Source of the DNA: a virus | Taxonomy: Duplodnaviria; Heunggongvirae; Uroviricota; Caudoviricetes | Direction: 5' to 3' (one strand) | DNA length: 41,124 nucleotides | Virus record (IMG/VR): IMGVR_UViG_2802429226_000008 | Location: 1 to 41,124 of that record | Part shown: positions 1 through 17,961 of the stretch, in pieces | Layout of the letters: each line of letters starts with the position of its first letter | How positions within the stretch are numbered: position 1 is the first letter of the stretch | Program-made: the position numbers and the translations under genes | The notes under the pieces: generated by a model | Databases searched by the model: none | The model's input: the letters and a program-made list of their open reading frames with translations, nothing else | What the model was told of the DNA's origin: nothing

Positions 1-1254
1 ATGCTGGAACAAATGGGCATTGCTGCGAAGCAAGCCTCGTATAAATTAGCGCAACTCTCCAGCCGCGAAAAAAATCGCGTGCTGGAAAAGATCGCTGATG
101 AGCTGGAAGCACAGAGCGAAAGCATCCTCGATGCTAACGCCCAGGATGTTGCTGACGCGCGTGCCAATGGCCTTAGCGAAGCGATGCTTGACCGTCTGGC
201 GTTAACGCCCGCGCGCCTGAAAGGCATTGCCGACGATGTGCGGCAGGTGTGTAATCTTGCCGATCCGGTAGGGCAGGTGATTGATGGAGGTGTGCTGGAC
301 AGCGGCCTGCGTCTGGAGCGTCGCCGCGTGCCGCTGGGTGTTATAGGTGTAATTTATGAAGCGCGTCCGAACGTGACAGTTGATGTCGCTTCGCTGTGTC
401 TGAAAACTGGTAACGCGGTGATCCTGCGCGGCGGCAAAGAAACCTGTCGCACTAACGCTGCAACGGTAGCGGTGATTCAGGACGCCCTGAAATCCTGCGG
501 TTTACCGGCAGGCGCAGTGCAGGCGATTGATAATCCGGATCGCGCACTGGTGAGTGAAATGCTGCGCATGGATAAATACATCGACATGTTGATCCCGCGT
601 GGTGGTGCTGGTTTGCATAAGCTGTGCCGCGAGCAGTCGACAATTCCGGTGATCACTGGCGGCATTGGCGTCTGCCATATTTACGTTGATGAAAGTGCTG
701 ACATTTCTGCAGCCCTGAAAGTGATCGTCAACGCGAAAACCCAGCGTCCGAGTACCTGCAATACGGTAGAAACGTTGCTGGTGAATAAAAACATCGCTGA
801 TAACTTCCTGCCTGCGTTAAGCAAGCAAATGGCGGAAAGCGGCGTGACGTTACACGCCGATGCTGCGGCACTGGCGCAGTTGCAGGCAGGATCTGCGAAA
901 GTGGTGGCTGTTAAGGCGGAAGAGTATGACGATGAATTCCTGTCGTTAGATTTGAACGTCAAAATCGTCAGCGATCTTGACGACGCCATCGCCCATATTC
1001 GTGAACACGGGACGCAACACTCCGATGCGATCCTGACGCGTGATATGCGCAATGCCCAGCGTTTTGTCAATGAAGTGGACTCCTCTGCTGTTTACGTTAA
1101 CGCGTCTACACGTTTCACCGACGGCGGCCAGTTTGGTCTTGGCGCGGAAGTGGCGGTAAGCACGCAAAAACTCCACGCACGCGGACCAATGGGGCTGGAA
1201 GCGCTGACCACCTACAAGTGGATCGGTATTGGTGATTACACCGTTCGTGCGTAA
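1..1254 (+). CDS. proA: gamma-glutamyl phosphate reductase (proline biosynthesis)
   Basis: 417-aa ORF starting at window position 1; protein matches my recollection of E. coli ProA along its length; proA is the known chromosomal neighbour of thrW. Confidence 0.93.
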
Positions 1255-1369
1255 ATAAAACCGGGTGATGCAAAAGTAGCCATTTGATTCACAAGGCCAT
1301 TGACGCATCGCCCGGTTAGTTTTAACCTTGTCCACCGTGATTCACGTTCGTGAACATGTCCTTTTCAGG

Positions 1370-1445
1370 GCCGATATAGCTCAGTTGGTAGAGCAGCGCA
1401 TTCGTAATGCGAAGGTCGTAGGTTCGACTCCTATTATCGGCACCA
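1370..1445 (+). tRNA. thrW: tRNA-Thr (anticodon CGU)
   Basis: 76-nt sequence GCCGATATAGCTCAGTTGGTAGAGC...GGTTCGACTCCTATTATCGGCACCA with anticodon loop cTTCGTAAt and 3' CCA; cloverleaf-compatible. Confidence 0.93.
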
Positions 1446-1459
1446 TTTAAATCAATAAG

Positions 1460-2623
1460 TTACACATCATTAGTACTTTCCTTATTTTTTGACTGGGACA
1501 AATTTGGGACCGATGGGTTCAGGATCGAGTCTATTTGCCGTGCGTGTTCGGTAAGGTGATTAGGTGCAAGGTGAGCATATCGACGAACCATTTCGATAGA
1601 CTCCCAGCCTCCCATTTCCTGTAACACTGACAACGGGACTCCGGCTTGAACCAGCCAACTTGCCCAGGTGTGTCTCAAGTCGTGAAATCTGAAATCATCA
1701 ATACCAGCCCGTCTCAGCGCCGCTTTCCAGGCTGTGTTTGCGTCATACCGCATCTTCCTTACTGTTGGCGCTTTCGTTCCGTCTGGTTTGGTACAGCTTT
1801 CCTTGTACACAAATACCCAACGGTGATGATTCCCGATTTGTTTTTTCAAAACGCGACATGCAGTATCATTCAGCGCAACGCCAATTGCGCGGTTTGATTT
1901 ACTCTCTTCCGGGTTTATCCATGCCACCCGGCGCTGCATGTCTATTTGTTGCCATTCAAGGTTGATGATGTTCGAGCGTCTTAAGCCTGTTGCCAGTGCA
2001 AATTCAACAACAGACTTTAATGGCTCCGGACATTCATCAATCAGCCTTTGTGCTTCATGGGGCTCCAGCCAGCGGATCCGTTTATTCTTTGGTTGAGGCA
2101 CTTTAATAATTGGTGCCTTATCCAGCATTTTCCATTCACGCTCTGCGGCTCTTAGTAGGGCCTTTATAAATGAAAGATGCGTAGCCTTCGTTGCAACGGA
2201 CGCTGGTTTTGGCGTGTATTCTGGAACAGGTTTCCCTTTTTTTCTGCATGCTTCTGCCCTGAGTCTCCAGTTTTCCTCATGACGCCGGTTCGTCATTTTC
2301 TGCATTGCTGAATAAATTTTTGATTCAGTAATGTCTCTTAGTTGCATTCCTGCGAAATGTTGAAGCCAGAATCCGATCCGGCTTTTGTCATCGTCCAGTG
2401 ATTTTTTATGTGCTTTCTCTTCAAGCCACCTGACACACGCTTCCTCGAACGTTATATCAGGTATTTCACCAAGTTTGCTGACCCGCCATGCTTCAGCCTT
2501 TAGCTTGTCATGGAGTTCTGTCGCCTGCCTTTTGTCCTTTGTTCCAAGAGACTGTTTAAATCTTTTACCGTTCGGCAATGTGAAACTGGCGTACCATATT
2601 TCACCTCTGCGGAAGAGTGACAT
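1460..2623 (-). CDS. int: phage integrase (tyrosine recombinase)
   Basis: 387 aa; C-terminal [10 protein letters not shown] and VRRYAHL tyrosine-recombinase motifs; ATG at 2623 with GAGGA SD; abuts tRNA. Confidence 0.93.
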
Positions 2624-2850
2624 TTTCTTTCCTCTGTTATGCCATCACCCGCGCTCACCTGGACAGTATGCAGCGGAGACTGAAGAGCCGCAATGCAGGC
2701 TTGTCGTGTTGTGAGGTAAGGAGATTTATTCTTAGTGGGATCTTTGCGTGTTGCCTGAAGACGCCCTGTGCGTATCCAGTTAATGGCAGTCGGTCTGGAT
2801 ATCTTGAGAAAATGACAGGCCTCATCGAGTGTGAGGCTGTATGGCTCCAT
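2500..2850 (-). CDS. excisionase-like HTH protein (putative Xis)
   Basis: ATG at 2850 preceded by GAGGTG SD; HTH segment [26 protein letters not shown]; overlaps the integrase 5' end as in lambda xis/int. Confidence 0.55.
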
Positions 2851-3155
2851 TATTTCACCTCTTGCTGTGACATTGTTGAAAAATGGATACCAGCTCGTTG
2901 CTGCCAGACGATCCAACCGAGAGTCATATCCCATGCCATGTATTCGTTATTGCCGTTTTTTGCTCTCCGACGATCTACTAAGTCACCGAAACGCTTTTCC
3001 ATGAATAATTCATAAGCTTCGCGTTCATCTGGTTCTACTTCCAGAGATAGGAGTGCGATTTCATAAGCACGGCGCTCAATATCGTCTCGCACGTCAAGGC
3101 TGCTGATACGCTCTTTAATTTCTTTAATCAGTTCTTTGTCGGTAAAAGTGGTCAT
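2850..3155 (-). CDS. hypothetical phage early protein
   Basis: 101-aa ORF; TAATG stop/start overlap with downstream gene at 2848..2852. Confidence 0.55.
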   Translation of the reverse strand: MTTFTDKELIKEIKERISSLDVRDDIERRAYEIALLSLEVEPDEREAYELFMEKRFGDLVDRRRAKNGNNEYMAWDMTLGWIVWQQRAGIHFSTMSQQEVK

Positions 3156-3517
3156 TATGCTCCAGCCTCCGGTGCTTTTGGCATTACTGCCCAGTGAGTG
3201 ATATTGACGTTTTCAAGGTCCCCGACCTGAAATGTCCACTGCCATTCTCCGGTTTCTTTTTGTCCCCAGGTGTACCAGAGAGAACGCCAACCAATTAGCC
3301 AGCCTTCTCCGTTAGCATCGAATAACAAAACACTTTCATTTGCTGGTGGCAGTTCAGTTGACACTGGTATTACTTTGTTTTCCTGTGCTGCACATTTAGC
3401 TTCAAGCGCATCGAATTTACGCACCAGGTATTCAGCATCTGTTTCATTTACTTTAAGATCTCGCGGTACACATCTCCCACGAAGAAACCCTTCCATTTCG
3501 AAAACATTCATGCGCAT
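3155..3517 (-). CDS. hypothetical phage early protein
   Basis: 120-aa ORF; TAATG coupling at 3153..3157; ATGA overlap with upstream gene. Confidence 0.55.
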   Translation of the reverse strand: MRMNVFEMEGFLRGRCVPRDLKVNETDAEYLVRKFDALEAKCAAQENKVIPVSTELPPANESVLLFDANGEGWLIGWRSLWYTWGQKETGEWQWTFQVGDLENVNITHWAVMPKAPEAGA

Positions 3518-4044
3518 TTGCGTAACTCCGATAACTCGTTAAAGCGTTCCATAAACATCCCGTAGGCATGGCCCGGTGCCAGTGGAATCACGTTGAACAT
3601 CTCTGTTGCCGGGATACCTTCCAGTACAGGCCAGAAAGAGCCATCATCAAGCCCGAGATCGCGGCGTTCGGTTGCCAGCATGATGAGATCGGCATATTTC
3701 ACGGGCGTACTCATAACTGGGGGTAATCCGTATTTCTCACGGATTACGGAGTCTATTTTTTCTTCCATTTGTTTATAGTCAGGAAGAAGGCGTTTCAGTG
3801 GTGCGGGAATGTCCTGGCAATACGCTTCTGTTGCATCATGCATTAACGCTTCAAAAGCAAATTCCTGCGGCACCAGCTGGCTGCAAAGAACCGCATGTTG
3901 GGCGACGCTGTAGAAGTGCGAAAGATGACCGGCAAAGCGACAGATATTTGAAAGGGAAACCGCGATATCGTTAATATCGATGTCGTCTTTATTTATCCTG
4001 TCATAATAAAAATGCTTCCCGGAAAAAGTTTTAATAAATGACAT
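3508..4044 (-). CDS. HD-domain phosphohydrolase (YfdR-like 5'-deoxynucleotidase family)
   Basis: H..H...HD motif (FAGHLSHF...HAV...LMHDATEAY); ATG at 4044 with GGAG SD (track start 4071 is a GTG). Confidence 0.7.
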   Translation of the reverse strand: MSFIKTFSGKHFYYDRINKDDIDINDIAVSLSNICRFAGHLSHFYSVAQHAVLCSQLVPQEFAFEALMHDATEAYCQDIPAPLKRLLPDYKQMEEKIDSVIREKYGLPPVMSTPVKYADLIMLATERRDLGLDDGSFWPVLEGIPATEMFNVIPLAPGHAYGMFMERFNELSELRKCA

Positions 4045-4171
4045 TTTGTTCTCCACGTATATGCGCTGCACCGCGCTGAATTCTGGTAAAAAGAATCCCT
4101 CACCATCCGGCGATTATTGAGTAAATTACGTTTTCATAAATGCCCCCGCAGGGGCATTTGCAGTAATGAAA

Positions 4172-4996
4172 TCAGGCGGTGAAAGTACCAATAAAGGTTT
4201 CTACTTTGCTGTCCTTGAATTTCTCAACAAGCAGATCACGAAATTCGTTAGCCATTTCTTCCTGCACCGCCTCCAGCTGAATAATGCGCAGAACCAGTAC
4301 CGGACGATCGCCAGTGATAATGCTGAGGCGTAATTTAAACGGACGTTCTTTCAGACCTTCAAACGGAATGCATTTAAATTCAAATGCCACTGGCATAATG
4401 TCTTTGGTCTTCGCTTCGACAGACTCCATCAGGGAGCGTTTGCCGCTGAAGTCATTATCTTCAAAATCAGCGGTCTGGTTTGCTTCAATCGTGATTTTAC
4501 GGACCGCCGCAGCCGCTTTTGTTGCCTGAATGGTGTCACCATTAGCATCAAAGCCCACAAGGTAGTCGGCCCAGTCTTCAATCCATTCTGCCAGTGATTT
4601 CTGGGAGTTACGCTCGCCATTAACAGACAACAGAGCAGAGAACGGTGCTGTCTTTTTCAGTTTGAGAGTGGCGGTGTTATCTGCGTGACCTGGTTCATCA
4701 ATAGTACCCAGGTTAAGCACACTGACGGCACGCATATTATCAGCATCGATAAAGCAGCGGGTGCCTTCATCTGCAAGATCTTTAGAATAACGGGTAAAGT
4801 CATCGATGCTGGCAGTGGAAAGCGCACCACGGAAACGGAAGCGATTTAAATTAAATTTTTCCAGATCATGAATGCGGAAATTCTCAGGCAATGCCACAGC
4901 ATCGGCACCAATCTTACTGATAATTTCATTAACACCCTGAGCAGAAATAAGGGCATGGATTTGATTAATTGCGGTTGCGTCTAAGTTCTGAGACAT
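4172..4996 (-). CDS. DUF2303 / YfdQ-like prophage protein
   Basis: 274-aa ORF with GAGGA SD; resemblance to CPS-53 YfdQ family from memory. Confidence 0.65.
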
Positions 4997-5061
4997 AATA
5001 AGTCCTCACTATATAAAGATATTCAGTGATGAGATAAATAATCAGTTAATTAAGAACGATA

Positions 5062-5424
5062 TTAATGACCTGCTGCGCGGAGTTTTCCGTCAGGTTCACC
5101 GGCAAGAGTCAGTAATTGTCCCTGGTCTTCCTGCAGAATAGTCAGGCGACCACCGCGATTGACATACATCGGCGTTTCGGTGGTGTCTTCTTCGGAAATT
5201 TTCCCGCGGTTAGTCGGGCGAACATATGAGAGTTTGTGTTTGATTTTCACACGGTTCTCATCAAATGGTTCGATTTCCAGGTTGAGTGAGACCTTACCTT
5301 TGGTTTTCGTGTTCATCACACCGGAAGCGACTTCACTGAGAACTGCGCCGATTTTGGTTTCAAATACGCCGCCGTCCAGCTCCCCGATAAATGCCTGCAC
5401 ATCAGTACTGCGTTCGCTAGCCAT
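5062..5424 (-). CDS. hypothetical phage protein (120 aa)
   Basis: ATG at 5424 with GAGGAG SD; upstream in-frame extension of track ORF to 5742 has junk-like composition. Confidence 0.6.
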   Translation of the reverse strand: MASERSTDVQAFIGELDGGVFETKIGAVLSEVASGVMNTKTKGKVSLNLEIEPFDENRVKIKHKLSYVRPTNRGKISEEDTTETPMYVNRGGRLTILQEDQGQLLTLAGEPDGKLRAAGH

Positions 5425-5861
5425 TTTGCTGCTCCTCATCATATCGACCCTGCAAGGCCGATTAGTTTCTCCACAAAACAGAGAAGAACACCTGCGGTAG
5501 CAGCCGCCCGGATGGATTGGGTTATGAGCCCGTCGTCCGGTGATGCTCTTCTCTGTTTTGTAAAAAGGACGGTACCAGCCGGAAGCAAGGGTACAAACTG
5601 GTACCGCCAGGACTACACACAGCATAAAGTTGTGGTGCCGGGTGCCTCCCGGTGCCTGGCGAAGGTTGCACACCAGACGGGTGGGTATCCACAGAAGGTC
5701 GACTGTCAGCCTCAACCTTAACCCGCGTGCGCTGAGCCGCATTCACCACAACGCTAAGGATTCTCTTTGGTTGAAAATACTTAGCTGTTATGTGCCTGTC
5801 TTTTCACCACTTCAGGCTCGGTGGTATCCTTTTAAGCCCGTATACATAAAAGGAAAATCAA

Positions 5862-6107
5862 ATGACTTTTGATGAAAAAGAACTTGATAATGCAATTAAT
5901 AAAATCATCGTAACGTCGCTCTTTTCCTGTCTCAGCGACACTCAGCAGAAACAGTTCTACGAATCGGCTTTCAACATGATCGAGCGTTGTTGTTTCTGCG
6001 ATGCCGACGAGTTACCTGAAAAAATCAGGAAACAGTTGGCTGATGCTCTTCGAGTGCGACTTTCTGACCAATTTTCTGAAATGTGCTCTCCGAATTTGGA
6101 CAAATAG
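5862..6107 (+). CDS. hypothetical small protein
   Basis: 81-aa ORF, AAGGA SD 9 nt upstream; convergently overlaps 6025..6300. Confidence 0.45.
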   Translation: MTFDEKELDNAINKIIVTSLFSCLSDTQQKQFYESAFNMIERCCFCDADELPEKIRKQLADALRVRLSDQFSEMCSPNLDK

Positions 6108-6300
6108 AAAAAGGCCATTTCCATTCAGGGTCTGATGGAAATACTTCAGCCTGTTCCAAAGCACGGCGTAAAGAGAACACAACTCCAGCCATAATCTGAT
6201 GTTTCCCATTGGTCCAGCTATCGCCGCTCTGATCTACAGGGGCGGCTATGTCGTATGACCAAACGACTTCACAGTTATTGTTTAAAATCTGGACTTTCAT
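6025..6300 (-). CDS. hypothetical small protein, first gene of leftward early operon
   Basis: ATG at 6300 with AGGTG SD; lies downstream of PL-like promoter. Confidence 0.45.
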   Translation of the reverse strand: MKVQILNNNCEVVWSYDIAAPVDQSGDSWTNGKHQIMAGVVFSLRRALEQAEVFPSDPEWKWPFSICPNSESTFQKIGQKVALEEHQPTVS

Positions 6301-6426
6301 TTCATACACCTGCTTTAACATGAGTGCCTAGTGGCACAACATGACTCAACGAATCATCCTGGACTTCATATGCCCCAGGCGGCTACTTCGTGGGCGTCCT
6401 GCCTGTTCGTTGTTTCGCTTGGGTAC

Positions 6427-6454
6427 ATTATGTATCTCAAAGGTACATTGTCAA
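6427..6454 (-). promoter_or_regulatory. PL-like sigma70 promoter (-35 TTGACA, 16-nt spacer, -10 CATAAT) with overlapping GTACA-type palindromes
   Basis: minus-strand reading of 6427..6454; palindrome TACAT-N-ATGTA at 6424..6434. Confidence 0.5.
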
Positions 6455-6457
6455 GTA

Positions 6458-6480
6458 TAAAAAAACCTGCCGAAGCAGGT
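6458..6480 (-). terminator. rho-independent terminator downstream of cI
   Basis: minus strand ACCTGCTTCGGCAGGT hairpin followed by a 7-T run. Confidence 0.7.
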
Positions 6481-6493
6481 TCATAAACATTGA

Positions 6494-7168
6494 TTAGGCT
6501 TTGATTTTGTATCTTCTTGGTTTTCCTGAGAAAATCACTGTACCAATTATAGAGCAATTACCGTTGATCTTAATGTAAGGCTCAGGCCAGTTTGGGTTTA
6601 ACGCTTTGAGATAACGCTGTGTCCCATCTTCTATCAACCTTTTGAAGGTGGTTTCGCCTGTATCGTGCATCAATGCAATAACGTCGTCACCGTGGCAGGC
6701 AGGTACTTCAGGATCGACAAAAATCATGTCTCCCGGGCGGTACTCATCAATCATTGAATCACCTATCACCCGCAAGATATAAGTCATTTCCCCACAGGGT
6801 ACAGGGCAGGGATACGTTTCTGCTGTGCTCAAATCAACCTCAGAATATCCAACTTCTTTCCATGCTCCGGCCTGTACCCATGATATGACAGGGACTAATG
6901 TGATTTGTTTATTAGTGATTGAAACATCAGGTTTTTTTGTGATGTTCGTTGTCTGGTGTTCTTGATCGAGCCATCCGACAGGCAGGTCGAAACATTTTTC
7001 GATGTGTCGTGCCATGCTGTCACCGATATTTTTAGTAGCACCATCTCCCATAAACCTGCTGGTCTGGGTTGGCTCGCGATCAATCATAGTGGCAAAGGAA
7101 GAATTCCCGCCAACACCATCTCTCAGTTTTCTGGCGTTAGACCGCCGGATGTCATGGATTGTTTTCAT
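6494..7168 (-). CDS. cI: CI-type prophage repressor (HTH-XRE N-domain, S24 LexA-like peptidase C-domain)
   Basis: 224 aa; C-terminal VIGDSM serine motif; no SD before ATG (leaderless-like); divergent from cro. Confidence 0.88.
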   Translation of the reverse strand: MKTIHDIRRSNARKLRDGVGGNSSFATMIDREPTQTSRFMGDGATKNIGDSMARHIEKCFDLPVGWLDQEHQTTNITKKPDVSITNKQITLVPVISWVQAGAWKEVGYSEVDLSTAETYPCPVPCGEMTYILRVIGDSMIDEYRPGDMIFVDPEVPACHGDDVIALMHDTGETTFKRLIEDGTQRYLKALNPNWPEPYIKINGNCSIIGTVIFSGKPRRYKIKA

Positions 7169-7258
7169 AACGAAATTAAAACCCTTGTACCGTTAAGGTA
7201 CAAGTATCTTGAAGGTTCATTTCAATCATGTAATATGTACACCGGAGGTACATATTGT
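7169..7258. promoter_or_regulatory. divergent PRM/PR promoter-operator region
   Basis: palindromes CTTGTACC-N5-GGTACAAG (7184..7204) and AATATGTAC-N7-GTACATATT (7232..7256); PR -35 TTGAAG 7209..7214, -10 TAATAT 7231..7236; PRM -35 (7198..7203) and -10 TTTAAT (7175..7180) on minus strand. Confidence 0.6.
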
Positions 7259-7459
7259 ATGAAAGCGTATTGGGACTCTTTAACCAAAGAACAGCAGGGC
7301 GAGTTGGCCGGAAAAGTTGGCTCAACACCTGGCTACTTACGGCTGGTTTTCAATGGCTATAAAAAAGCCAGTTTTGTGCTGGCTAAAAAACTTGAGCAAT
7401 GCACGTCAGGTGCAATTACGAAATCTGACTTAAGACCGGATATCTATCCGAAAGATTAG
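7259..7459 (+). CDS. cro: Cro-like HTH regulator
   Basis: 66 aa; GGAGG SD 10 nt upstream; divergent from cI. Confidence 0.75.
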   Translation: MKAYWDSLTKEQQGELAGKVGSTPGYLRLVFNGYKKASFVLAKKLEQCTSGAITKSDLRPDIYPKD

Positions 7460-7490
7460 CAGAACACTTTCAATTTTTAACCACAGAACG

Positions 7491-8054
7491 ATGAGGCTAA
7501 CCGTGGGTAAGCATCACTGGAAAATAGAAAAACAGCCTGAGTGGTACGTGAAAGCTGTCAGAAAAACTATCGCAAAGTTGCCGGGTGGTTACGCTGAAGC
7601 AGCTGACTGGCTGGATGTAACAGAGAACGCATTATTTAACCGCCTTCGTGCCGATGGCGATCAGATTTTCCCGCTGGGATGGGCAATGATTTTGCAACGT
7701 GCTGGTGGAACTCACTTCATTGCTGACGCAGTGGCGCAGTCTGCAAATGGCGTCTTTGTGTCTCTTCCTGACGTCGAGGATGTGGACAACGCCGATATTA
7801 ACCAGCGCCTGCTGGAAGTCATTGAACAGATCGGCAGTTATTCAAAACAGATTCGTTCAGCAATTGAAGACGGTGTAGTGGAACCGCATGAGAAGACAGC
7901 AATTAACGACGAGCTGTACCTCTCAATTTCGAAGCTGCAGGAGCATGCAGCACTGGTCTACAAAATTTTTTGCATTTCAGAAAGTAATGACGCCCGCGAG
8001 TGTGCAGCTCCGGGCGCCGTGGCGTGTCGTGACTGTGGAGAAACTAACGCATGA
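7491..8054 (+). CDS. putative early regulatory protein (CII/YdaT-position; function uncertain)
   Basis: 187-aa ORF immediately after cro. Confidence 0.5.
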
Positions 8055-8389
8055 ACAGTTTAACAACACACTACCGTCGCTCGCAACTGATTGCGCTTCC
8101 TGTACCGGGTGGAAAAGCGAAGGTGGAGTATTGCTATGCAGTAAATGTACCAGGTGACAGGGAAATTGTAACCCACAGCTTTGCAGAGTGGGCTGTGGGT
8201 GATTTCAACCGGCAGAAGGAGACAGTCCTTTGCGACAAGTTAACCGCTGGTTCAAAGATCACTACGGAGTGCCCGTCAGAGTCATTCGTTGGGAGCCGGA
8301 AACACAACGTGTTATCTACCTCCGCGAAGGCTATGAGCATGAGTGCTTCAGCCCGCTCGAACAGTTTCGTCGTAAATTCAGGGAAATAG
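8051..8389 (+). CDS. hypothetical protein; 3' half probably read in wrong frame (see finding)
   Basis: 112-aa track ORF; C-terminal third is Ser-rich junk-like while alternate frame 8203..8409 reads protein-like. Confidence 0.35.
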
Positions 8390-8398
8390 AGGTCGGTC

Positions 8399-9340
8399 AT
8401 GAGCACTAAATTAACCGGCTATGTATGGGATGGTTGCGCTGCATCAGGCATGAAATTATCCAGCGTGGCAATTATGGCCCGCCTGGCTGATTTCAGTAAT
8501 GACGAAGGTGTGTGCTGGCCATCAATTGAAACCATTGCCCGCCAGATTGGCGCGGGGATGAGTACCGTCAGAACGGCTATCGCACGGCTGGAAGCAGAAG
8601 GCTGGTTAACGCGTAAGGCGCGTCGCCAGGGTAACCGCAATGCGTCGAATGTTTATCAGCTTAACGTTGCGAAGCTTCAGGCAGCGGCATTTTCTCAACT
8701 GTCAGATTCTGACCCGTCAAAATCTGACGCATCAAAATCTGACCCGTCAAAATTTGATGCGTCGAAATCTGGCAAAAAAGCGGGTTTTCACCCGTCAGAA
8801 TCTGGCGGGGATCCGTCAGTAAAATCAAAACATGATCCGTCAGATAAAAAAACTTCTCGTCCGGACGCTTCGCAACCGGACACGCAGACGGCTGAACAGG
8901 AGTTTTTAACTCGCCATCCTGATGCGGTTGTATTCAGCCCTAAAAAGCGCCAGTGGGGAACGCAGGATGATTTGACCTGCGCACAGTGGCTCTGGAAAAA
9001 AATCATCGCCCTGTACGAGCAGGCCGCCGAATGTGACGGCGAGGTGGTTCGTCCCAAAGAACCGAACTGGACAGCCTGGGCAAACGAAATTCGCCTGATG
9101 TGTGTGCAGGATGGTCGTACTCACAAACAAATCTGCGAGATGTACAGCCGCGTCAGCCGCGATCCGTTCTGGTGCCGTAACGTGCTCAGCCCGTCGAAGC
9201 TGCGGGAAAAATGGGATGAGCTTTCCCTGCGCTTATCGCCGTCCGTCAGCACGTACACAGAAAAACGCGAAGACCCGTACTTCAAAGCCAGTTACGACAA
9301 CGTGGACTACAGCCAGATCCCGGCAGGATTCAGGGGGTGA
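8399..9340 (+). CDS. replication initiation protein (lambda O-like, N-terminal wHTH), contains iteron array
   Basis: 313 aa; N-terminal HTH region; internal DPSKSDASKSDPSKFDASKSG repeat reflecting DNA iterons. Confidence 0.8.
   Translation: MSTKLTGYVWDGCAASGMKLSSVAIMARLADFSNDEGVCWPSIETIARQIGAGMSTVRTAIARLEAEGWLTRKARRQGNRNASNVYQLNVAKLQAAAFSQLSDSDPSKSDASKSDPSKFDASKSGKKAGFHPSESGGDPSVKSKHDPSDKKTSRPDASQPDTQTAEQEFLTRHPDAVVFSPKKRQWGTQDDLTCAQWLWKKIIALYEQAAECDGEVVRPKEPNWTAWANEIRLMCVQDGRTHKQICEMYSRVSRDPFWCRNVLSPSKLREKWDELSLRLSPSVSTYTEKREDPYFKASYDNVDYSQIPAGFRG
8702..8806. repeat. iteron array (putative replication origin), 15-bp periodic direct repeats TCAAAATCTGAC, followed by an AT-rich tract
   Basis: copies at 8702, 8717, 8732, 8747, 8762 and 8795; A-rich segment 8820..8850. 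Confidence 0.7.
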
Positions 9341-9342
9341 TC

Positions 9343-9831
9343 ATGAGTCTTTTGAATGAAGTTCAGAAATTCATTGAAGCCCATCCGGGGTGTACTTCCG
9401 GAGACATTGCGGATGCTTTTGCAGGTTACTCACGGCAGCGCGTTCTGCAGTCAGCAAGCAAGTTACGTCAGAGTGGGCGTGTGGCTCACCGTTGTGAAGG
9501 AGATACACGCAGACATTTCCCACGCCTGACTGAGAGAGCGCAGGAGCCGGAACCACAACCAGTTCGTGAAACCAGACCTGTGCGCAATTTCTATGTCGGC
9601 ACTAACGATCCCCGGGTGATTTTGTGCCTGACCCGCCAGGCGGAAGAATTGGAGTCCAGGGGCTTATACCGTCGTGCTGCAACGGTGTGGATGGCGGCAT
9701 TCCGTGAAAGCCACTCCCAGCCAGAACGAAACAATTTTCTGGCGCGTCGTGAGCAGTGTTTACGGAAAAGCAGCAAGCGCGCTGTATCGGGTGATGAGTG
9801 GTATCTGTCAGGGAATTACGTGGGGGCTTAA
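9343..9831 (+). CDS. hypothetical phage protein (possible winged-helix N-terminus)
   Basis: ATG at 9343 (track start 9337 is GTG); TAATG overlap with next gene. Confidence 0.55.
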   Translation: MSLLNEVQKFIEAHPGCTSGDIADAFAGYSRQRVLQSASKLRQSGRVAHRCEGDTRRHFPRLTERAQEPEPQPVRETRPVRNFYVGTNDPRVILCLTRQAEELESRGLYRRAATVWMAAFRESHSQPERNNFLARREQCLRKSSKRAVSGDEWYLSGNYVGA

Positions 9832-10484
9832 TGAGTAATAAATATTGCCAGGAGCTGGTGGAACTGCGGAACAAACCAGCCCATGAACTGAAGGAAGTGG
9901 GTGATCAGTGGCGCACGCCGGACAACATTTTCTGGGGAATTAACACCCTGTTTGGCCCGTTTGTTCTGGATCTGTTTACTGACGGTGATAACGCCAAATG
10001 TGCTGCGTATTACACGGCGGAAGACAACGCGCTGGCGCATGACTGGTCAGAACGTCTTGCGGAGCTTAAAGGGGCTGCCTTTGGTAATCCCCCATACAGC
10101 CGCGCCAGTCAGCATGAGGGGCAATACATCACCGGCATGCGTTACATCATGAAACATGCCAGTGCCATGCGTGATAAGGGCGGGCGCTATGTTTTCTTGA
10201 TCAAAGCTGCCACCAGCGAAGTGTGGTGGCCGGAAGATGCAGATCATATTGCTTTTATTCGCGGGCGTATTGGTTTTGAACTGCCTGTCTGGTTTATCCC
10301 GAAAGACGAGAAGCAGGTACCGACAGGAGCTTTTTTCGCTGGTGCTATTGCTGTTTTTGACAAGACCTGGAAGGGACCGGCAATCAGCTACATCGGGCGC
10401 GATGAACTTGAGGCATGTGGTGAGGCGTTTCTGGCGCAGGTTCGCCAGCAGGCGGAAAAACTGGTCAGGGAGATGGCGGCATGA
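9831..10484 (+). CDS. phage DNA N6-adenine methyltransferase (orphan Dam-like)
   Basis: NPPY motif (GNPPYS); ATG at 9831 overlapping upstream stop. Confidence 0.82.
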   Translation: MSNKYCQELVELRNKPAHELKEVGDQWRTPDNIFWGINTLFGPFVLDLFTDGDNAKCAAYYTAEDNALAHDWSERLAELKGAAFGNPPYSRASQHEGQYITGMRYIMKHASAMRDKGGRYVFLIKAATSEVWWPEDADHIAFIRGRIGFELPVWFIPKDEKQVPTGAFFAGAIAVFDKTWKGPAISYIGRDELEACGEAFLAQVRQQAEKLVREMAA

Positions 10485-10807
10485 CGATGTTAACTCAATG
10501 CCAGCAGCAGGTGCTGGATATGCTGATTTCTTACCAAAAAGAACGTGGCTTCCCGCCAACCAATCAGGAGGTGGCAACCATGCTGGGATACCGTTCAGTG
10601 AATGCAGCGGTAGAACATCTTCGCGCACTGGAGAAAAAAGGCGTCATCACGATAAAGCGTGGCGTGGCCCGGGGCATCACGCTTCATACCGTGGTGAAGG
10701 ACGACGACAGCGAGGCGGTCGGGATTATCCGCTCACTGCTTGCCGGTGAGGAAAACGCCAGGCTGCGTGCAGCCCACTGGTTACATGAGAGGGGCCTGAA
10801 AGTATGA
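10481..10807 (+). CDS. LexA-N-terminal-like DNA-binding protein
   Basis: 108 aa; ATGA overlap; GGAG SD; winged-helix-like N-terminus. Confidence 0.55.
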   Translation: MTMLTQCQQQVLDMLISYQKERGFPPTNQEVATMLGYRSVNAAVEHLRALEKKGVITIKRGVARGITLHTVVKDDDSEAVGIIRSLLAGEENARLRAAHWLHERGLKV

Positions 10808-11193
10808 AGCTGATCTTGCCTTTCCCGCCCAGCGTGAACACGTACTGGCGACACCCCAATAAAGGGGCGTTTGCAGGTAAGAGCCTGATAAGCGCGGCGG
10901 GGCGCAAATTCCAGAGCGCGGCGTGTGCAGCAATAGTTGAGCAGTTACGTCGTCTGCCAAAACCAACGTCGGCACCTGCTTCAGTGGAGATCGTGTTGTT
11001 TCCTCCGGATAACCGGATCCGCGATCTGGACAACTATAACAAGGCGCTGTTTGACGCCCTGACCCACGCGGGTGTGTGGGAAGACGACAGTCAGGTGAAA
11101 AGAATGCTGGTGGAGTGGGGACCGGTTATCCCGGAAGGGAAGGTCGAGATCACTATCAGTAAGTACGAGAAAACGGCGGGTGCAGCCGCCTGA
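10804..11193 (+). CDS. rusA: RusA Holliday-junction resolvase
   Basis: 129 aa; LPFPPSVNTYWRH and RDLDNYNKALFDALT...EDDSQV motifs typical of RusA. Confidence 0.88.
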   Translation: MKLILPFPPSVNTYWRHPNKGAFAGKSLISAAGRKFQSAACAAIVEQLRRLPKPTSAPASVEIVLFPPDNRIRDLDNYNKALFDALTHAGVWEDDSQVKRMLVEWGPVIPEGKVEITISKYEKTAGAAA

Positions 11194-11212
11194 TTAAGAG
11201 GAGAAACGAAGT

Positions 11213-12010
11213 ATGAATAATCTGATGGTCATTGATGGTATTGAAGTTCGTCGTGATGCTTATGGGCGTTACAGCCTGAACGATCTGCACAGGGCTGCCG
11301 GTTCTCTGGATAAGCATAAGCCTGCATTCTGGCTCCGCAATGAGCAAACTGAACGTTTAATAAGCGAGTTGCAGATTTGCAACTCGGTCAATATAGAGCC
11401 AGTTAACGTTATTCGTGGCGGAAATAACCAGGGGACGTATGTCTGCAAAGAACTGGTGTATGCCTATGCAATGTGGATCAGCCCGTCATTCCATCTGAAG
11501 GTGATCCGTACTTTCGACATGGTAACCAGCGCACCTGAAAAATTATCCGGACAGGCTGCTGACAAGATGCAGGCTGGCGTGATTCTGCTGGACTTTATGC
11601 GCCGGGAGTTAAATCTGTCTAACTCTTCAGTGCTTGGAGCCTGTCAGAAACTTCAGGAGGCTGTTGGCTTACCGAATCTGGCACCGCGCTATGCCATTGA
11701 TGCTCCTGCTGATGCACACGATGGCTCAAGTCGCCCGACACTGTCACTGAGTGCACTGCTGAAACAGTATGGTATCCGCCTGACGGCTAATCAGGCATAT
11801 CACCAGATGGTGAAGCTGGGGATCGTCGAGCAGCGCGAACGATACAGCCGTACCGCGATTAACAACATCAAAAAATTCTGGTCGCTGACAGCGAAAGGTT
11901 GCATGTTCGGCAAGAACATCACCAGTCCCGCAAATCCGCGCGAGACGCAGCCGCATTTCTTCGAATCCCGATTCCCTGAGCTGTTAAAGCTGCTCGATAC
12001 CGTTCATTGA
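11213..12010 (+). CDS. KilA-N domain protein (putative antirepressor-like)
   Basis: 265 aa; strong AGGAG SD; N-terminal KilA-N-like segment. Confidence 0.7.
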   Translation: MNNLMVIDGIEVRRDAYGRYSLNDLHRAAGSLDKHKPAFWLRNEQTERLISELQICNSVNIEPVNVIRGGNNQGTYVCKELVYAYAMWISPSFHLKVIRTFDMVTSAPEKLSGQAADKMQAGVILLDFMRRELNLSNSSVLGACQKLQEAVGLPNLAPRYAIDAPADAHDGSSRPTLSLSALLKQYGIRLTANQAYHQMVKLGIVEQRERYSRTAINNIKKFWSLTAKGCMFGKNITSPANPRETQPHFFESRFPELLKLLDTVH

Positions 12011-12011
12011 G

Positions 12012-13007
12012 GTGACCGTGAGAGCACTACTGACCCCTGAAATTGCCCCGCGTATGGGGATCGTATTGTTCAGGCCAGGTTCAGAGCTGATGCCCTTGTT
12101 TATGCAGGGGCGTGTCCTGCTGGAGCCTGAGCCGGAACGTTATTCATCTTTCGCCAGTGGTGCCGTTCCGGCGGCATCACAACCGCTGGCGGATGATCCT
12201 GCCGTTCGGGCCGTGTTCCGCAATGAGGCAGTGATCCGTCGTGCTGGTGGCGTGGAATGTCTTGAAAGCTGGTTACTTCGTGAAAAAGGCTGCCAGTGGC
12301 CTCATTCCGGCTGGCACAGCGAGAACATGACCACAATGCGACACGCGCCGGGCGCAATCCGTCTGTGCTGGCACTGTGATAACCAGCTGCGCGATCAGTT
12401 CACGGAACGGCTGGAATCAATGGCAACGGATAACTGTGCCCGGTGGGTGTTATCTGTCGTGCGTCGGGATCTCGGTTTTAATGATAGTCACGTTGTGACA
12501 ATGCCGGAACTGTGCTGGTGGCTGGTTCGTAATGACTTGGCGGATGCCTTACCGGAAAGTGCAGCCCGTAAGGCACTGAGATTACCGAAGCCTGTTGTGC
12601 CGTCTGTCACCCGGGAAAGTGACCTTGTGCCTTCGGTTCCTGCCACCAGCATCATCCAGGATAAAGCGAAAAAGGTGCTGGCGCTGAAAGTGGATCCGGA
12701 GTCGCCGGAGTCTTTTATGTTACGCCCAAAACGTCGCCGCTGGGTTAATGAAAAGTACACGCGCTGGGTTAAGACACAGCCGTGTGCATGTTGTGGAAAG
12801 CCTGCTGATGATCCCCACCACCTGATAGGCCACGGTCAGGGGGGAATGGGTACAAAAGCGCATGACCTCTTTGTGTTGCCTTTGTGCAGAAAGCATCACG
12901 ACGAACTGCATGCGGATACCGTGGCATTTGAAGAGATGTATGGCTCCCAACTGGAGCTGATATTTCGTTTTATCGATCGTGCGCTGGCAATTGGCGTACT
13001 GGCGTAA
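12012..13007 (+). CDS. DUF968-family prophage protein (YdfU-like)
   Basis: 331 aa; C-terminal Cys/His-rich CACCGK...HHLIGHG...CRKHHDELH; start codon uncertain (GTG at 12012). Confidence 0.65.
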   Translation: MTVRALLTPEIAPRMGIVLFRPGSELMPLFMQGRVLLEPEPERYSSFASGAVPAASQPLADDPAVRAVFRNEAVIRRAGGVECLESWLLREKGCQWPHSGWHSENMTTMRHAPGAIRLCWHCDNQLRDQFTERLESMATDNCARWVLSVVRRDLGFNDSHVVTMPELCWWLVRNDLADALPESAARKALRLPKPVVPSVTRESDLVPSVPATSIIQDKAKKVLALKVDPESPESFMLRPKRRRWVNEKYTRWVKTQPCACCGKPADDPHHLIGHGQGGMGTKAHDLFVLPLCRKHHDELHADTVAFEEMYGSQLELIFRFIDRALAIGVLA

Positions 13008-13020
13008 GTGGAGAACGAGC

Positions 13021-13773
13021 ATGAACCTTGAAGCCTTACCAAAATATTACTCCCCAAAATCTCCAAAATTGAGCGATGACGCACCGGCGACAGGCTCAGG
13101 TGGTTTAACGATTACGGATGTGATGGCTGCGCAGGGGATGGTGCAGTCGAAAGCACCGCTTGGGTTTGCCTTATTCCTGGCAAAAGTTGGTGTTCAGGAT
13201 CCTCAGTTTGCGATTGAAGGTCTGCTCAATTACGCGATGGCACTGGATAACCCGACATTGAACAAATTGAGTGAAGAAATCCGGTTACAGATCATCCCTT
13301 ACCTTGTGAATTTTGCCTTTGCTGATTATTCCAGGTCTGCGGCAAGTAAGGCTCGCTGTGAGCATTGTGCTGGTACTGGATTTCATAATGTATTGCGCGA
13401 GGTGGTGAAGCACTCCAGAAGCGGGGAATCTGTTATCAAGGAAGAGTGGGTGAAGGAACTATGTCAGCATTGTCATGGTAAGGGAGAAGTCAGCACAGCG
13501 TGCAGAGGGTGTAAGGGTAAAGGTATTGTCCTGGATGAAAAAAGGACCCGGCTTCATGGCACACCTGTTTATAAGATTTGTGGGCGTTGCAATGGAAAAC
13601 GGTTTAGTCGTTTACCAACCACACTGGCGCGGCATCATGTCCAGAAGCTGGTACCGGACCTGACTGATTATCAGTGGTACAAAGGATATGCAAATGTCAT
13701 TGATAAACTGGTTACAAAGTGCTGGCAGGAGGAATCTTACGCTGAAGCACAATTGAGAAAGGTGACGAGATAA
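13021..13773 (+). CDS. late-gene antiterminator Q-like protein
   Basis: 250 aa; paired CxxC zinc-finger motifs (CEHCAGTG, CQHCHGKG, CRGCKGKG, CGRCNG); position just upstream of lysis genes. Confidence 0.78.
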   Translation: MNLEALPKYYSPKSPKLSDDAPATGSGGLTITDVMAAQGMVQSKAPLGFALFLAKVGVQDPQFAIEGLLNYAMALDNPTLNKLSEEIRLQIIPYLVNFAFADYSRSAASKARCEHCAGTGFHNVLREVVKHSRSGESVIKEEWVKELCQHCHGKGEVSTACRGCKGKGIVLDEKRTRLHGTPVYKICGRCNGKRFSRLPTTLARHHVQKLVPDLTDYQWYKGYANVIDKLVTKCWQEESYAEAQLRKVTR

Positions 13774-14372
13774 GTGATTTTCGCCGAAGATGGCGACATG
13801 ATGCTTGCATTTTTCAAAAAATATGGATAAGATTTTCTCAACGATGGGCTTTGTATGTCTGCCGTTGAGAATCTTCAAGAACCCGCCATCAAGTAGGTAT
13901 TTTGTTATCCAAATATCAGTTCTGAATAGTCTTAGTCGCTTCTTGATAAACATAAAAGAATAAGTACTTGCTTTGAATGGCCGCCTTTTAGACAGGGCAG
14001 AGAGTACGATTGGTTGAAAAAAGCATAGTTCTTGGCGGTAGGTTTTATTTTAGTCTCTCATCTATGTATCTAGGGAAGTATGTGATTACCTTCAGGAATT
14101 ATATCCTGTGTTTCATATGATTACATGGGAGCAAGGGACGCCAACTTTATAACAATTCTTTTGCCCAGCCACTATATATAGATAAAAAAAATCCTCATCA
14201 TCCCGTATATTGTTGTTGATTTCTTTTTGCTATATATGTTGTGTTTTTTATGCCTTTATTGCATATGTGATTAATGTGCTTGTTGTTATATTCAATACGA
14301 TGCCAAGGGATTTGGGACGTGTATATCCAATAAATTGGCAGATTTTTGTTAATTACTTGGGTAGCGTATTGT

Positions 14373-14813
14373 ATGACTAAAAATGCACAGCAGGTTCTTG
14401 AAGACTCTGCCCAACAGATTTTTCCCGATTATTTTCCTGCAGATGTTCCTCCAAAAGAGTCCTTGGATGCTGAAGGGGTTTTTTATCGCTTAGCCAGAAA
14501 TAATCCACCTGGGAAAGCTTGTTTTTTAAACATGAAAGAAGAAAACCCAAAAAGAATGAAAAAGTTCCAAGGGTTAAAATTGAAATGCTGCTATGGTGTT
14601 TCTATGTTCATGGACGAAACATCACTGGTAAATGTATTTAATAAATTTCCTGAAGGAATAGGTGAAAGGTTTATTGCTAAAGGCGAGTTGAATCCACAGG
14701 ATGGAAGAATGCTAAAAACAGGAGCTCCTGATTCGACTCATTTTACCATTTGGCTTTGTAAAGATGCTCGAGTTCATGAAAAATTCACCTGTATAAGAGA
14801 GGTGGTTAGATGA
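14373..14813 (+). CDS. hypothetical protein, AT-rich cargo gene A (146 aa)
   Basis: ATG at 14373 (track start 14346 is TTG); low-GC codon usage; ATGA overlap with gene B. Confidence 0.6.
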   Translation: MTKNAQQVLEDSAQQIFPDYFPADVPPKESLDAEGVFYRLARNNPPGKACFLNMKEENPKRMKKFQGLKLKCCYGVSMFMDETSLVNVFNKFPEGIGERFIAKGELNPQDGRMLKTGAPDSTHFTIWLCKDARVHEKFTCIREVVR

Positions 14814-16099: not shown

Positions 16100-16176
16100 A
16101 GGATATGATGATTATCTTCTTTTTGGAAGAAGATAATGTAAATTTGATTTTATTATAACACTCTACCTAAATAAAA

Positions 16177-16200
16177 GGCTCGCACAGGCGAGCCTTTTCC
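16177..16200 (+). terminator. rho-independent terminator after cargo operon
   Basis: GGCTCGC-ACAG-GCGAGCC hairpin followed by TTTTCC. Confidence 0.6.
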
Positions 16201-16279
16201 ATGTCTCAATCTGATTCAACTATTTTATTTAACTTTTTATATGTCGCCTGCATAACTTACGAGGTGAGAGACGATATTC

Positions 16280-16615
16280 ATGCCCCATAATCCAAACACA
16301 TGGCCGGATTGGCTGGAGATTTTCCAGAGCTGGTGGCGTGGAGATACGCCTCTTGGCGCAGTGATTATGTCGATCGTTATGGCTGGTTTGCGTATTGCTT
16401 ATTTTGGTGGTGGTGGTGGCTGGAAGCGAAAAACGCTCGAGATTTTGCTCTGTGGTGCTCTGACGCTGACTTTTGCATCCGCGCTTGAGTATGTCGGATG
16501 GCCTAAATCGCTTTCTGTTGCCATTGGTGGTGGCGTGGGGCTGATCGGTGTCGATGCTATTCGTGGGGCTGCAATGCGAGTAATCGGTAATAAATTTGGT
16601 AGCTCGAAGGAGTAA
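16280..16615 (+). CDS. holin
   Basis: 111 aa with three hydrophobic segments; immediately upstream of endolysin. Confidence 0.72.
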   Translation: MPHNPNTWPDWLEIFQSWWRGDTPLGAVIMSIVMAGLRIAYFGGGGGWKRKTLEILLCGALTLTFASALEYVGWPKSLSVAIGGGVGLIGVDAIRGAAMRVIGNKFGSSKE

Positions 16616-16618
16616 TTT

Positions 16619-17630: not shown

Positions 17631-17721
17631 GGGGCTGTGAAAATAACCTTGAAAACTGCAATATAATCCCCATTAACTTTTCGTGACCTGCTATATCGGC
17701 AGGGTAAGAAAGGGAATTATT

Positions 17722-17919: not shown

Positions 17920-17937
17920 AATGCGAACCGTACTTTA

Positions 17938-17961
17938 AACCGCCTTCGGGCGGTTTTTTTA
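17938..17961 (+). terminator. rho-independent terminator
   Basis: CCGCCTTCGGGCGG hairpin followed by a 7-T run. Confidence 0.85.

What the first reader, a model, noticed from the sequence alone, without database searches (positions are those of the whole stretch)
1370..1462. Prophage integration at the 3' end of thrW with integrase immediately adjacent
Seen: the integrase stop codon (1460..1462) lies 15 nt after the tRNA CCA end. Established: tyrosine integrases of this type recombine within the 3' portion of tRNA genes and regenerate the tRNA 3' end, so attL should overlap ~1425..1460 and a direct repeat of the tRNA 3' segment should exist at the far prophage end (not in the window).
Basis: partly seen in the sequence, partly recalled or inferred. 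Interest (0 to 1): 0.28.

Follow-up and report, generated by a model that had tools for sequence, protein, structure and literature searches.

The report
Prophage left junction at thrW tRNA
This is the ordinary left junction (attL) of a 40-kb SfV/P22-type prophage inserted in the threonine tRNA gene thrW of an Escherichia marmotae-like chromosome. The predicted matching repeat does exist, 441 bp past the window end, so the finding is correct but textbook.

Summary
tRNA-Thr(CGU) lies at 1370..1445 (+). A 387-aa tyrosine integrase ORF lies at 1460..2623 (-), and its TAA stop is at 1460..1462.

The integrase is 98% identical to Shigella phage SfV Int and 89% identical to P22 Int. A 116-aa Xis gene overlaps its start.

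I found the source contig, PTSS01000010.1. It is 100% identical to both ends of the window, at consistent spacing. In it, a perfect 59-bp copy of window 1400..1458 lies 441 bp beyond the window end.

A same-species four-way comparison is clean. The left arm of attL matches the empty site 80/80. The right arm of attR matches the empty-site flank 360/360. The other two arms match SfV attP 74/80 and 356/361.

The repeat starts at nucleotide 31 of the tRNA, at the edge of the anticodon loop, not at about 1425. It includes the published 46-bp SfV/P22 core. The excisable unit is 40,165 bp.

The strand-exchange point is probably the anticodon loop (1401..1407). P22 GenBank records instead mark a core that corresponds to 1407..1429, so this point is unresolved.

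The mechanism is already known and interest is low. Side observations:
- The host flank is a fossil integrase gene.
- A SIR2 gene sits where SfV carries its gtr genes.

The parts
1..1254 (+). proA (glutamate-5-semialdehyde dehydrogenase); chromosomal flank on the B side of attL
   Evidence: A 417-aa ORF, annotated proA in syntenic E. coli loci. It is only 90-92.7% identical in DNA to every E. coli genome and to the other Escherichia species found. Its protein is identical to the ProA of E. marmotae CP025979.1.
1370..1445 (+). thrW, tRNA-Thr(CGU), intact. Nucleotides 1-30 come from the host. Nucleotides 31-76 lie within the phage/host identity block.
   Evidence: ARAGORN and Rfam at 71.8 bits. 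The sequence is identical to thrW at empty sites. It is nearly invariant across about 70 Enterobacteriaceae loci, with 8 carrying 1-2 differences.
1400..1458 (+). attL common core: a 59-bp perfect direct repeat with attR of the same contig. The first 46 bp (1400..1445) are the published SfV/SfI/SfIV/P22 attP core. Against E. coli attB the identity runs to 1455 (56 bp).
   Evidence: Four-way comparisons. The attR copy lies at L123 16226 onward. SfI record annotation of a 46-bp attP core. PMC3851460.
1401..1407 (+). Anticodon loop TTCGTAA (anticodon at 1403..1405); the favoured candidate for the 7-bp strand-exchange (overlap) region
   Evidence: This is inference. In 11 phages of this integrase family, which target thrW or tRNA-Arg(UCU), the phage-borne tRNA fragment starts within a few nucleotides of the 5' edge of this loop. 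In one of them, GF-2, it runs about 4 nt further 5'. This matches the anticodon-loop sublocation rule summarised in bioRxiv 10.1101/2020.11.02.365908.
1407..1429 (+). Equivalent of the 23-bp 'attP core' annotated in P22, P22-pbi and phage L GenBank records. Read as 8+7+8, it places the overlap at GTCGTAG, 1415..1421. This is the alternative crossover candidate.
   Evidence: Record annotations mapped onto the window. ES18 annotates 25 bp, equivalent to 1407..1431.
1456..1515 (+). P' arm of attL (phage-derived). It holds two direct TGGGAC repeats 11 bp apart (1494..1499 and 1505..1510) that are candidate Int arm-type sites. It overlaps the last codons of int.
   Evidence: From 1400 onward attL matches the SfV attP right arm 356/361. 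The TGGGAC pair sits at the same offsets (+94 and +105) in SfV, SfI, P22, ES18 and L. Further copies lie in the P arm. Their function is inferred.
1460..2623 (-). int, a tyrosine integrase of the P22/SfV (thrW-specific) type, 387 aa, apparently intact
   Evidence: Pfam PF00589, E 3.5e-48. It matches SfV Int at 381/387 and P22 Int at 346/387, with the same length. The closest solved structure is the HP1 integrase.
2500..2850 (-). xis (excisionase, the recombination directionality factor), 116 aa from the ATG at 2850. It overlaps the start of int by 124 nt. A longer 144-aa reading runs to 2934.
   Evidence: Pfam HTH_17, E 5.9e-09. Its position and length match P22 xis. P22 Xis is 116 aa (PMC4111918).
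1400..41124 (.). Body of the SfV-like prophage as far as the window reaches: LexA-like repressor, replication genes, Q, lysis genes, terminase, HK97-type head, Mu-type contractile tail, pin invertase and SIR2 cargo. The element ends at attR, at window-equivalent 41565..41623. The unit length is 40,165 bp.
   Evidence: Gene content matches the UMNK88 annotation. 63-67% of the sequence is 97-98% identical to SfV. There is no internal att copy. attR is in L123.
38314..41124 (-). SIR2-domain protein gene (936 aa, about 30% GC). It is the last prophage gene before the P arm and attR, in the slot where SfV and P22 carry gtrABC.
   Evidence: Pfam SIR2_2, E 3.4e-24. The N-terminal 260 aa are closest to DSR2 (PDB 8k98, E 6e-35). 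The same gene sits 441 bp from attR in 10 E. coli genomes, and an eleventh, fS58a (L008), has the 46-bp core about 440 bp from the annotated gene start.

Best explanation
Positions 1400..~1515 are the attL junction of an apparently intact 40.2-kb SfV-like temperate myophage. The phage inserted into thrW by Int-mediated site-specific recombination of the P22/SfV type.

The phage attP carries a copy of thrW nucleotides 31-76 plus about 13 bp of downstream sequence. Recombination between this copy and the chromosomal gene splits thrW. The host 5' part (1370..1399) becomes joined to the phage-borne 3' part, so an intact tRNA gene remains at attL. The displaced host 3' fragment ends up at attR, 40,165 bp away.

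Int is transcribed toward the tRNA, and its last codons overlap the P' arm. Xis, just upstream, should direct excision.

Shown here: the anatomy, both junctions, the empty site, and identity to the attP arms of characterised phages. Inferred: that strand exchange occurs in the 7-nt anticodon loop (1401..1407; about 0.65), that the TGGGAC repeats are arm-type Int sites, and that the prophage is still excision-competent.
For: - The tRNA, int and xis calls are solid.
- Int is 98% identical to SfV Int and 89% identical to P22 Int.
- All phage matches to 1380..2700 begin exactly at window 1400.
- The four-way att comparison with E. coli sites gives a 56-bp core.
- The source contig was identified at 100% identity over 5,123 and 15,785 nt, with consistent spacing.
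- attR lies 441 bp past the window end, as a 59-bp perfect repeat.
- Within the same species, the attL left arm matches attB 80/80 and the attR right arm matches the attB flank 360/360. The attR left arm matches the SfV P arm 74/80, and the attL right arm matches the SfV P' arm 356/361.
- The 46-bp attP shared by SfI, SfIV and SfV, and their integration into thrW, are published (PMC3851460).
- P22 att requirements are published (PMC4111918).
- Empty thrW sites occur in 948 of 5,426 complete E. coli genomes. The same int abuts thrW in 796.
- For the anticodon loop: in 11 family members on two different tRNAs, the fragment starts within a few nucleotides of the loop's 5' edge. PMC2629481 reports 43 bp of argU in epsilon34.
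Against: - P22, P22-pbi, phage L and ES18 GenBank records annotate the attP core at the equivalent of 1407..1429/1431. That would put the overlap at 1415..1421 rather than in the anticodon loop.
- The primary paper (Smith-Mungo et al. 1994) could not be read.
- thrW is almost invariant, so no natural polymorphism maps the crossover.
- Excision competence was not tested.
- The middle of the window (5124..25339) was not compared directly with the source contig.
Confidence: 0.95

Rival explanations
1. The same integration, but strand exchange occurs in the variable loop and 5' strand of the T-stem (GTCGTAG, 1415..1421). This segment is flanked by the imperfect inverted repeats ATGCGAAG and GTTCGACT, as the 23-bp core annotated in P22 records implies.
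For: Four curated phage records mark this 23-25-bp segment as the attP core. CGAA-N9-TTCG symmetry is present (read directly from the sequence).
Against: This model leaves unexplained why every family member keeps exact tRNA identity from nucleotide 31/32 onward, on two different target tRNAs. The phage-side bases TTCTTATA just left of 1400 are conserved between P22 and SfV, although the rest of the P arm diverges. That fits a core-type site flanking the anticodon loop. An attR fragment with the G50:C64 allele (L112) would be a heterology inside this proposed overlap, if the incoming phage carried the usual T50.
Confidence: 0.3
2. Integration occurs at the extreme 3' end of the tRNA (the asymmetric 3'-end sublocation), with attL confined to about 1425..1460.
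For: The integrase stop codon lies only 15 nt from the CCA end. Many tRNA-targeting islands use the T-loop or the 3' end.
Against: The identity block between attP, attB, attL and attR begins at 1400 in every comparison. The phage therefore carries 46 nt of the tRNA, far more than a 3'-end crossover would require.
Confidence: 0.03
3. The int next to thrW belongs to a decayed, non-excisable remnant, or the 40-kb stretch is two tandem elements (a prophage plus a separate SIR2 island) sharing the tRNA site.
For: thrW is a hot spot. In genomes with an identical ProA, it carries other elements, truncated int scars and a fossil int. The SIR2 gene has 30% GC and replaces the gtr genes.
Against: int and xis are full length. 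A complete set of head, tail, lysis and regulatory genes is present. Both att copies are perfect over 59 bp. No third att copy lies between them. The P arm beside SIR2 is the SfV P arm.
Confidence: 0.05

Closest known systems
Shigella flexneri serotype-converting phages SfV, SfIV, SfI and SfII (integration module int-xis-attP at thrW)
   Same: Int is 98-99.5% identical to theirs. The attP arms and the 46-bp core are nearly or exactly identical. They share the Xis, the same early-left genes, an HK97-type head and a Mu-type tail. 63-67% of the genome is 97-98% identical. The orientation is also the same: thrW-attL-int on one side and cargo-attR on the other.
   Different: The cargo next to attP is a 936-aa SIR2 protein instead of gtrA-gtrB-gtr(type). 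The tail-fibre/pin region and a low-GC two-gene insert after Q differ. The host is E. marmotae-like rather than Shigella or E. coli.
Salmonella phage P22 Int/Xis/attP (the characterised prototype)
   Same: Int is 89% identical, also 387 aa. Xis is 116 aa. The 46-bp core is identical, the int stop lies at the same distance from the core, and the TGGGAC repeats sit at the same offsets. It also integrates into thrW beside proA (PMC2629481 table).
   Different: The DNA of the arms is only about 80% identical. The virion is a podovirus. P22 identity with attB stops at the CCA, whereas here it runs 10-13 bp further.
argU-targeting relatives (epsilon34, 2G7b, DLP12-type) and APSE/Klebsiella phages on tRNA-Arg(UCU)
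   Same: They have the same integrase family (64-73% identity) and the same layout. Int converges on a tRNA fragment that starts at the anticodon loop and runs to the CCA.
   Different: They use a different target tRNA and a different core sequence.
HK542 / SfX-type integrases, also at thrW
   Same: The target tRNA fragment is the same and starts at nucleotide 31.
   Different: Int is only 56% identical, and the arms are unrelated.

Membership tests
P22/SfV-type thrW-specific tyrosine integrase module | Tyrosine recombinase catalytic domain, full length | tested here: met
   PF00589 at E 3.5e-48, covering profile positions 1-171 of 172. The protein is 387 aa with no frameshift relative to SfV or P22 Int.
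P22/SfV-type thrW-specific tyrosine integrase module | Close sequence relationship to characterised Int proteins of that specificity | tested here: met
   381/387 identical to SfV Int and 346/387 identical to P22 Int.
P22/SfV-type thrW-specific tyrosine integrase module | 46-bp core identical to thrW nucleotides 31-76, placed just downstream of the int stop codon | tested here: met
   Window 1400..1445 equals the attP cores of SfI, SfV and P22. The 46-bp attP is published (PMC3851460).
P22/SfV-type thrW-specific tyrosine integrase module | Element bounded by direct repeats of the core (attL and attR), with an empty site reconstructible as B-O-B' | tested here: met
   attR lies 441 bp past the window end in the 100%-identical contig. 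The arms match attB and attP as expected. Empty sites are found in E. marmotae and E. coli.
P22/SfV-type thrW-specific tyrosine integrase module | Excisionase gene upstream of int and overlapping it | tested here: met
   An HTH_17 protein of 116 aa at 2500..2850, overlapping int by 124 nt as in P22.
P22/SfV-type thrW-specific tyrosine integrase module | Arm-type Int binding sites in the P and P' arms | tested here: inconclusive
   Conserved TGGGAC direct repeats lie at +94/+105 and at -60 (also -125/-114 in P22). Binding was not tested, and the published site list could not be read.
P22/SfV-type thrW-specific tyrosine integrase module | Demonstrated integration and excision activity | not testable with these tools
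   Requires induction followed by junction PCR, or in vitro recombination.
Anticodon-loop sublocation class of tRNA-targeting integrases (Williams scheme) | The phage/host identity block starts at the anticodon loop and runs to the 3' end | tested here: met
   The block starts at nucleotide 31 here and at nucleotide 31/32 in 10 relatives on two tRNAs. The scheme is as summarised.
Anticodon-loop sublocation class of tRNA-targeting integrases (Williams scheme) | Strand exchange within the 7-nt loop | not testable with these tools
   There is no informative polymorphism. P22 record annotations point elsewhere.
Serotype-converting (gtr-carrying) SfV-like phages | gtrA-gtrB-gtr(type) operon between the tail genes and attP | tested here: not met
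   That slot holds only the SIR2 gene, 38314..41124. SfV, SfI and P22 carry gtr genes there.

The most novel reading that the evidence does not exclude
The 936-aa SIR2 protein beside attR may be an uncharacterised single-gene anti-phage NADase. Its N-terminal domain resembles DSR2, and its 660-aa C-terminal part matches nothing searched. It is carried as swappable cargo in the lysogenic-conversion slot of SfV-like phages, in place of the O-antigen gtr genes. In that case the attR-proximal slot would be a general exchange point for host-benefit genes.
Probability: 0.4. Interest if true: 0.35.

Novelty: already known. Interest (0 to 1): 0.1.

Why it matters
The result fixes the exact prophage boundaries. 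The core is 1400..1458, the unit length is 40,165 bp, and attR lies 441 bp past the window end. Genes in the window can therefore be assigned to phage or host with confidence.

It also shows an SfV-type Shigella/E. coli phage, with an attP core identical to SfV's, resident in E. marmotae. This is possible because thrW is nearly invariant across Enterobacteriaceae.

The mechanism itself has been textbook knowledge since the P22 and SfV work, so the finding adds an instance, not a principle.

Tried and rejected
- I searched the window for a second copy of either half of the core, allowing up to 3 mismatches. There is none (repeat finder).
- I looked for the source genome among 5,426 complete E. 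coli genomes. It is absent: proA is at most 92.3% identical and the prophage at most about 97%.
- An exact 33-mer from the window end was scanned against the GTDB species representatives, with no hit. A ProA scan there found only other Escherichia species, at 90-92.7%.
- The source was finally found through exact-protein look-ups.
- Williams 2002, Vander Byl & Kropinski 2000, Mattis 2008 and Cho 1999 were requested by id and are not held. Smith-Mungo 1994 has no PMC id and was not requested.
- I tried to map the crossover from natural polymorphism. thrW is almost invariant, and all attL copies examined are identical.
- I tried to retrieve attL of the genome whose attR carries the G50:C64 allele (CP057673.1). 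It is not in the E. coli collection, and no other genome has that attR. A look-up through a shared 120-aa protein was swamped by 32,533 blocks.
- Promoter and terminator scans around attL gave nothing above the shuffled expectation.

Full report
**Observation**

The window opens with proA (1..1254, +). ARAGORN finds a single tRNA, tRNA-Thr(CGT), at 1370..1445 (+). Rfam's tRNA model scores it 71.8 bits. An ORF on the minus strand at 1460..2623 encodes 387 aa. It holds a full-length Phage_integrase domain (E 3.5e-48). Its stop codon is the reverse complement of tta at 1460..1462, and 14 bases separate it from the CCA end. A 116-aa HTH_17 protein (2500..2850, -) overlaps the start of int, exactly as P22 xis does.

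**What the integrase is**

DNA from 1380..2700 matches Shigella phages SfIV and SfV (99.5%), SfI and SfII (98.5%), and P22, ST64T, L and ES18 (80%). Every one of these matches begins at query base 21, which is window 1400. The protein is 381/387 identical to SfV Int and 346/387 identical to P22 Int, with the same length. Published work states that SfI, SfIV and SfV share an identical 46-bp attP and integrate into thrW (PMC3851460). The SfI record annotates that 46-bp core where window 1400..1445 aligns.

**The far-end repeat**

Neither half of the core recurs in the window, even with 3 mismatches. No complete E. coli genome holds the source. proA is at most 92.3% identical, although the phage part is 98.5-99.4% identical to E. 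coli prophages and SfV.

Exact-protein look-ups then found contig PTSS01000010.1 (GCA_002965295.1). L120 equals window 1..5123 and L123 equals window 25340..41124, each with 0 mismatches. Their record coordinates fit one offset (window p = record 63081 + p).

In L123 the sequence of window 1400..1458 recurs perfectly at 16226, which is 441 bp past the window end. The same 46-bp fragment lies 441 bp beyond the same SIR2 gene in 10 E. coli genomes, and about 440 bp beyond it in an eleventh, fS58a (L008).

**Four-way comparison**

An empty site in the same species (CP025979.1, an E. marmotae genome from PMC6650469) gives these matches:
- attL left arm against attB: 80/80.
- attR right arm against the attB flank: 360/360.
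- attR left arm against the SfV P arm: 74/80.
- attL right arm against the SfV P' arm: 356/361.

With E. coli attB the common core is 1400..1455. The core starts at tRNA nucleotide 31, the last base pair of the anticodon stem. The unit from core to core is 40,165 bp, comparable to SfIV (39,758 bp) and SfV (37,074 bp).

**How it works**

The anatomy is that of a lambda-style heterobivalent tyrosine integrase system. The attP is reported as about 260 bp and the attB as 27 bp for P22. IHF is dispensable for P22, and Xis is the directionality factor (PMC4111918).

The phage carries thrW nucleotides 31-76, so integration rebuilds an intact gene at attL and displaces the host 3' fragment to attR. 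Two TGGGAC repeats 11 bp apart (1494..1499 and 1505..1510) lie in the last codons of int. They are conserved at identical offsets in SfV, SfI, P22, ES18 and L, with further copies in the P arm. I take them as candidate arm-type sites, which is an inference.

**Crossover point**

Eleven family members start their tRNA fragment within a few nucleotides of the 5' edge of the anticodon loop (the 43-bp argU block of epsilon34 is from PMC2629481):
- Five thrW phages with 89-99% identical Int: SfV, SfI, P22, ES18 and phage L.
- HK542 and GF-2, also on thrW, with 56-59% identical Int. In GF-2 the identity runs about 4 nt further 5'.
- 2G7b, epsilon34, APSE-2 and a Klebsiella phage on tRNA-Arg(UCU), with 64-73% identical Int.

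A phage needs to carry only what lies 3' of the exchange point. This sharp, shared start therefore argues that the 7-nt loop (1401..1407) is the overlap. That is the anticodon-loop sublocation summarised.

Against this, P22, P22-pbi, L and ES18 records annotate a 23-25-bp core equivalent to 1407..1429/1431. That would centre the overlap on 1415..1421. The primary paper was not available, and thrW is too invariant for natural markers. I put about 0.65 on the loop and about 0.3 on the annotated segment.

**Rivals**

- A 3'-end crossover is contradicted by the position of the identity block.
- A decayed remnant or a tandem composite is unlikely. int and xis are intact, a full set of structural genes is present, the two att copies are perfect, no third copy exists, and the P arm beside the SIR2 gene is the SfV P arm.

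**Comparison and novelty**

This is a member of the P22/SfV thrW integration module on every feature I could test. It is not a serotype-converting phage, because the gtr slot holds a SIR2 gene. The mechanism and the site are already known, so interest is low.

**Side observations**

- The species' "native" flank after thrW is a fossil of an older related int gene. Two 97-nt segments are 86% identical to window 1529..1625 and 2032..2128.
- Three genomes with an identical ProA carry thrW plus a window-like P' arm up to about 1625, fused to that fossil. This is the signature of prophage loss by homologous recombination rather than by Int/Xis.
- Other notes are listed in the noticed-in-passing section.

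Noticed in passing
window 1..1399: The chromosomal flank (proA plus the 5' part of thrW) is only 90-92.7% identical to every E. coli genome and to E. ruysiae and E. whittamii. Its ProA protein is identical to that of E. marmotae CP025979.1. From 1400 onward the DNA is 99.4% identical to Shigella phage SfV. The host is therefore E. marmotae-like (cryptic clade V), and the phage has crossed species.
   Followed up: yes
L123 16285..16580 (source contig, beyond the window end); same sequence in L101 and L107: The host-side flank of attR, which is also the flank of the species' empty site, is a fossil integrase gene. Two 97-nt segments are 86% identical to window int 1529..1625 and 2032..2128, with the stretch between them deleted. 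An earlier P22-family prophage decayed at the same site. This also explains why phage/host identity runs past the CCA end.
   Followed up: yes
L103, L105, L106 (genomes with identical ProA), thrW + 180 nt: These loci have thrW followed by a window-type P' arm and int 3' end up to about window 1625 (99%), then switch into the fossil int and chromosomal genes. This looks like prophage deletion by homologous recombination between the int 3' end and the fossil copy, not Int/Xis excision.
   Followed up: partly
window 38314..41124 (-): A 936-aa SIR2_2-domain protein at about 30% GC, the last gene before attR, in the slot where SfV and P22 carry gtrABC. The N-terminal 260 aa are closest to DSR2 (PDB 8k98, E 6e-35) and ThsA. 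The C-terminal 660 aa or so match nothing in PDB, Pfam or PADLOC. The same gene (99.8%) occurs in thrW prophages of pig ETEC strains.
   Followed up: partly
window 14346..16099 (+): A low-GC (35%) two-gene insert just after the Q antiterminator (12979..13773). It gives weak PADLOC hits to PD-T4-10_A and PD-T4-10_B, and a Pfam DUF6575 hit. UMNK88 carries TIR and caspase-family genes at the same slot, so this is a second swappable defence-like cargo position.
   Followed up: partly
L112 (CP057673.1), attR fragment 441 bp from SIR2: This attR tRNA fragment carries the compensatory T-stem variant G50:C64, an allele also seen in intact thrW of three other taxa (L011, L066, L079). If the attL of that genome has the usual T50:A64, the crossover must lie 5' of position 50. 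The attL could not be retrieved.
   Followed up: partly
window 1407..1429 versus 1401..1407: GenBank records of P22, P22-pbi, L and ES18 mark a 23-25-bp attP core that does not include the anticodon loop. Comparative anatomy of 11 family members points to the loop as the exchange region. The conflict is unresolved.
   Followed up: partly
window 36684..38093: A pin-type serine invertase (37503..38093, +; Resolvase plus HTH_7) lies next to oppositely oriented tail-fibre and tail-fibre-assembly genes (36684..37512, -). This is an invertible host-range segment like those of Mu, P1 and e14. The region differs from SfV and from UMNK88.
   Followed up: no
window 8687..8809: Six iteron-like copies of TCAAAATCTGAC(C/G)C(G/A), mostly at 15-bp spacing, lie inside the replication-gene region. 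They are probably the phage origin.
   Followed up: no
L135 (CP164244.1): The same early-left genes (the DUF2303, 178-aa, 120-aa and 101-aa ORFs) are joined there to a lambda-type Exc/Int module beside a pectinesterase gene. The integration module is exchanged as a unit just after the 101-aa ORF.
   Followed up: no
L100, L102, L104 (genomes with identical ProA): thrW is a hot spot in this species. One genome carries a P4-like integrase island reading away from the tRNA, another an unrelated element, and a third an SfV-like prophage with the TTAAAATCAA variant.
   Followed up: no
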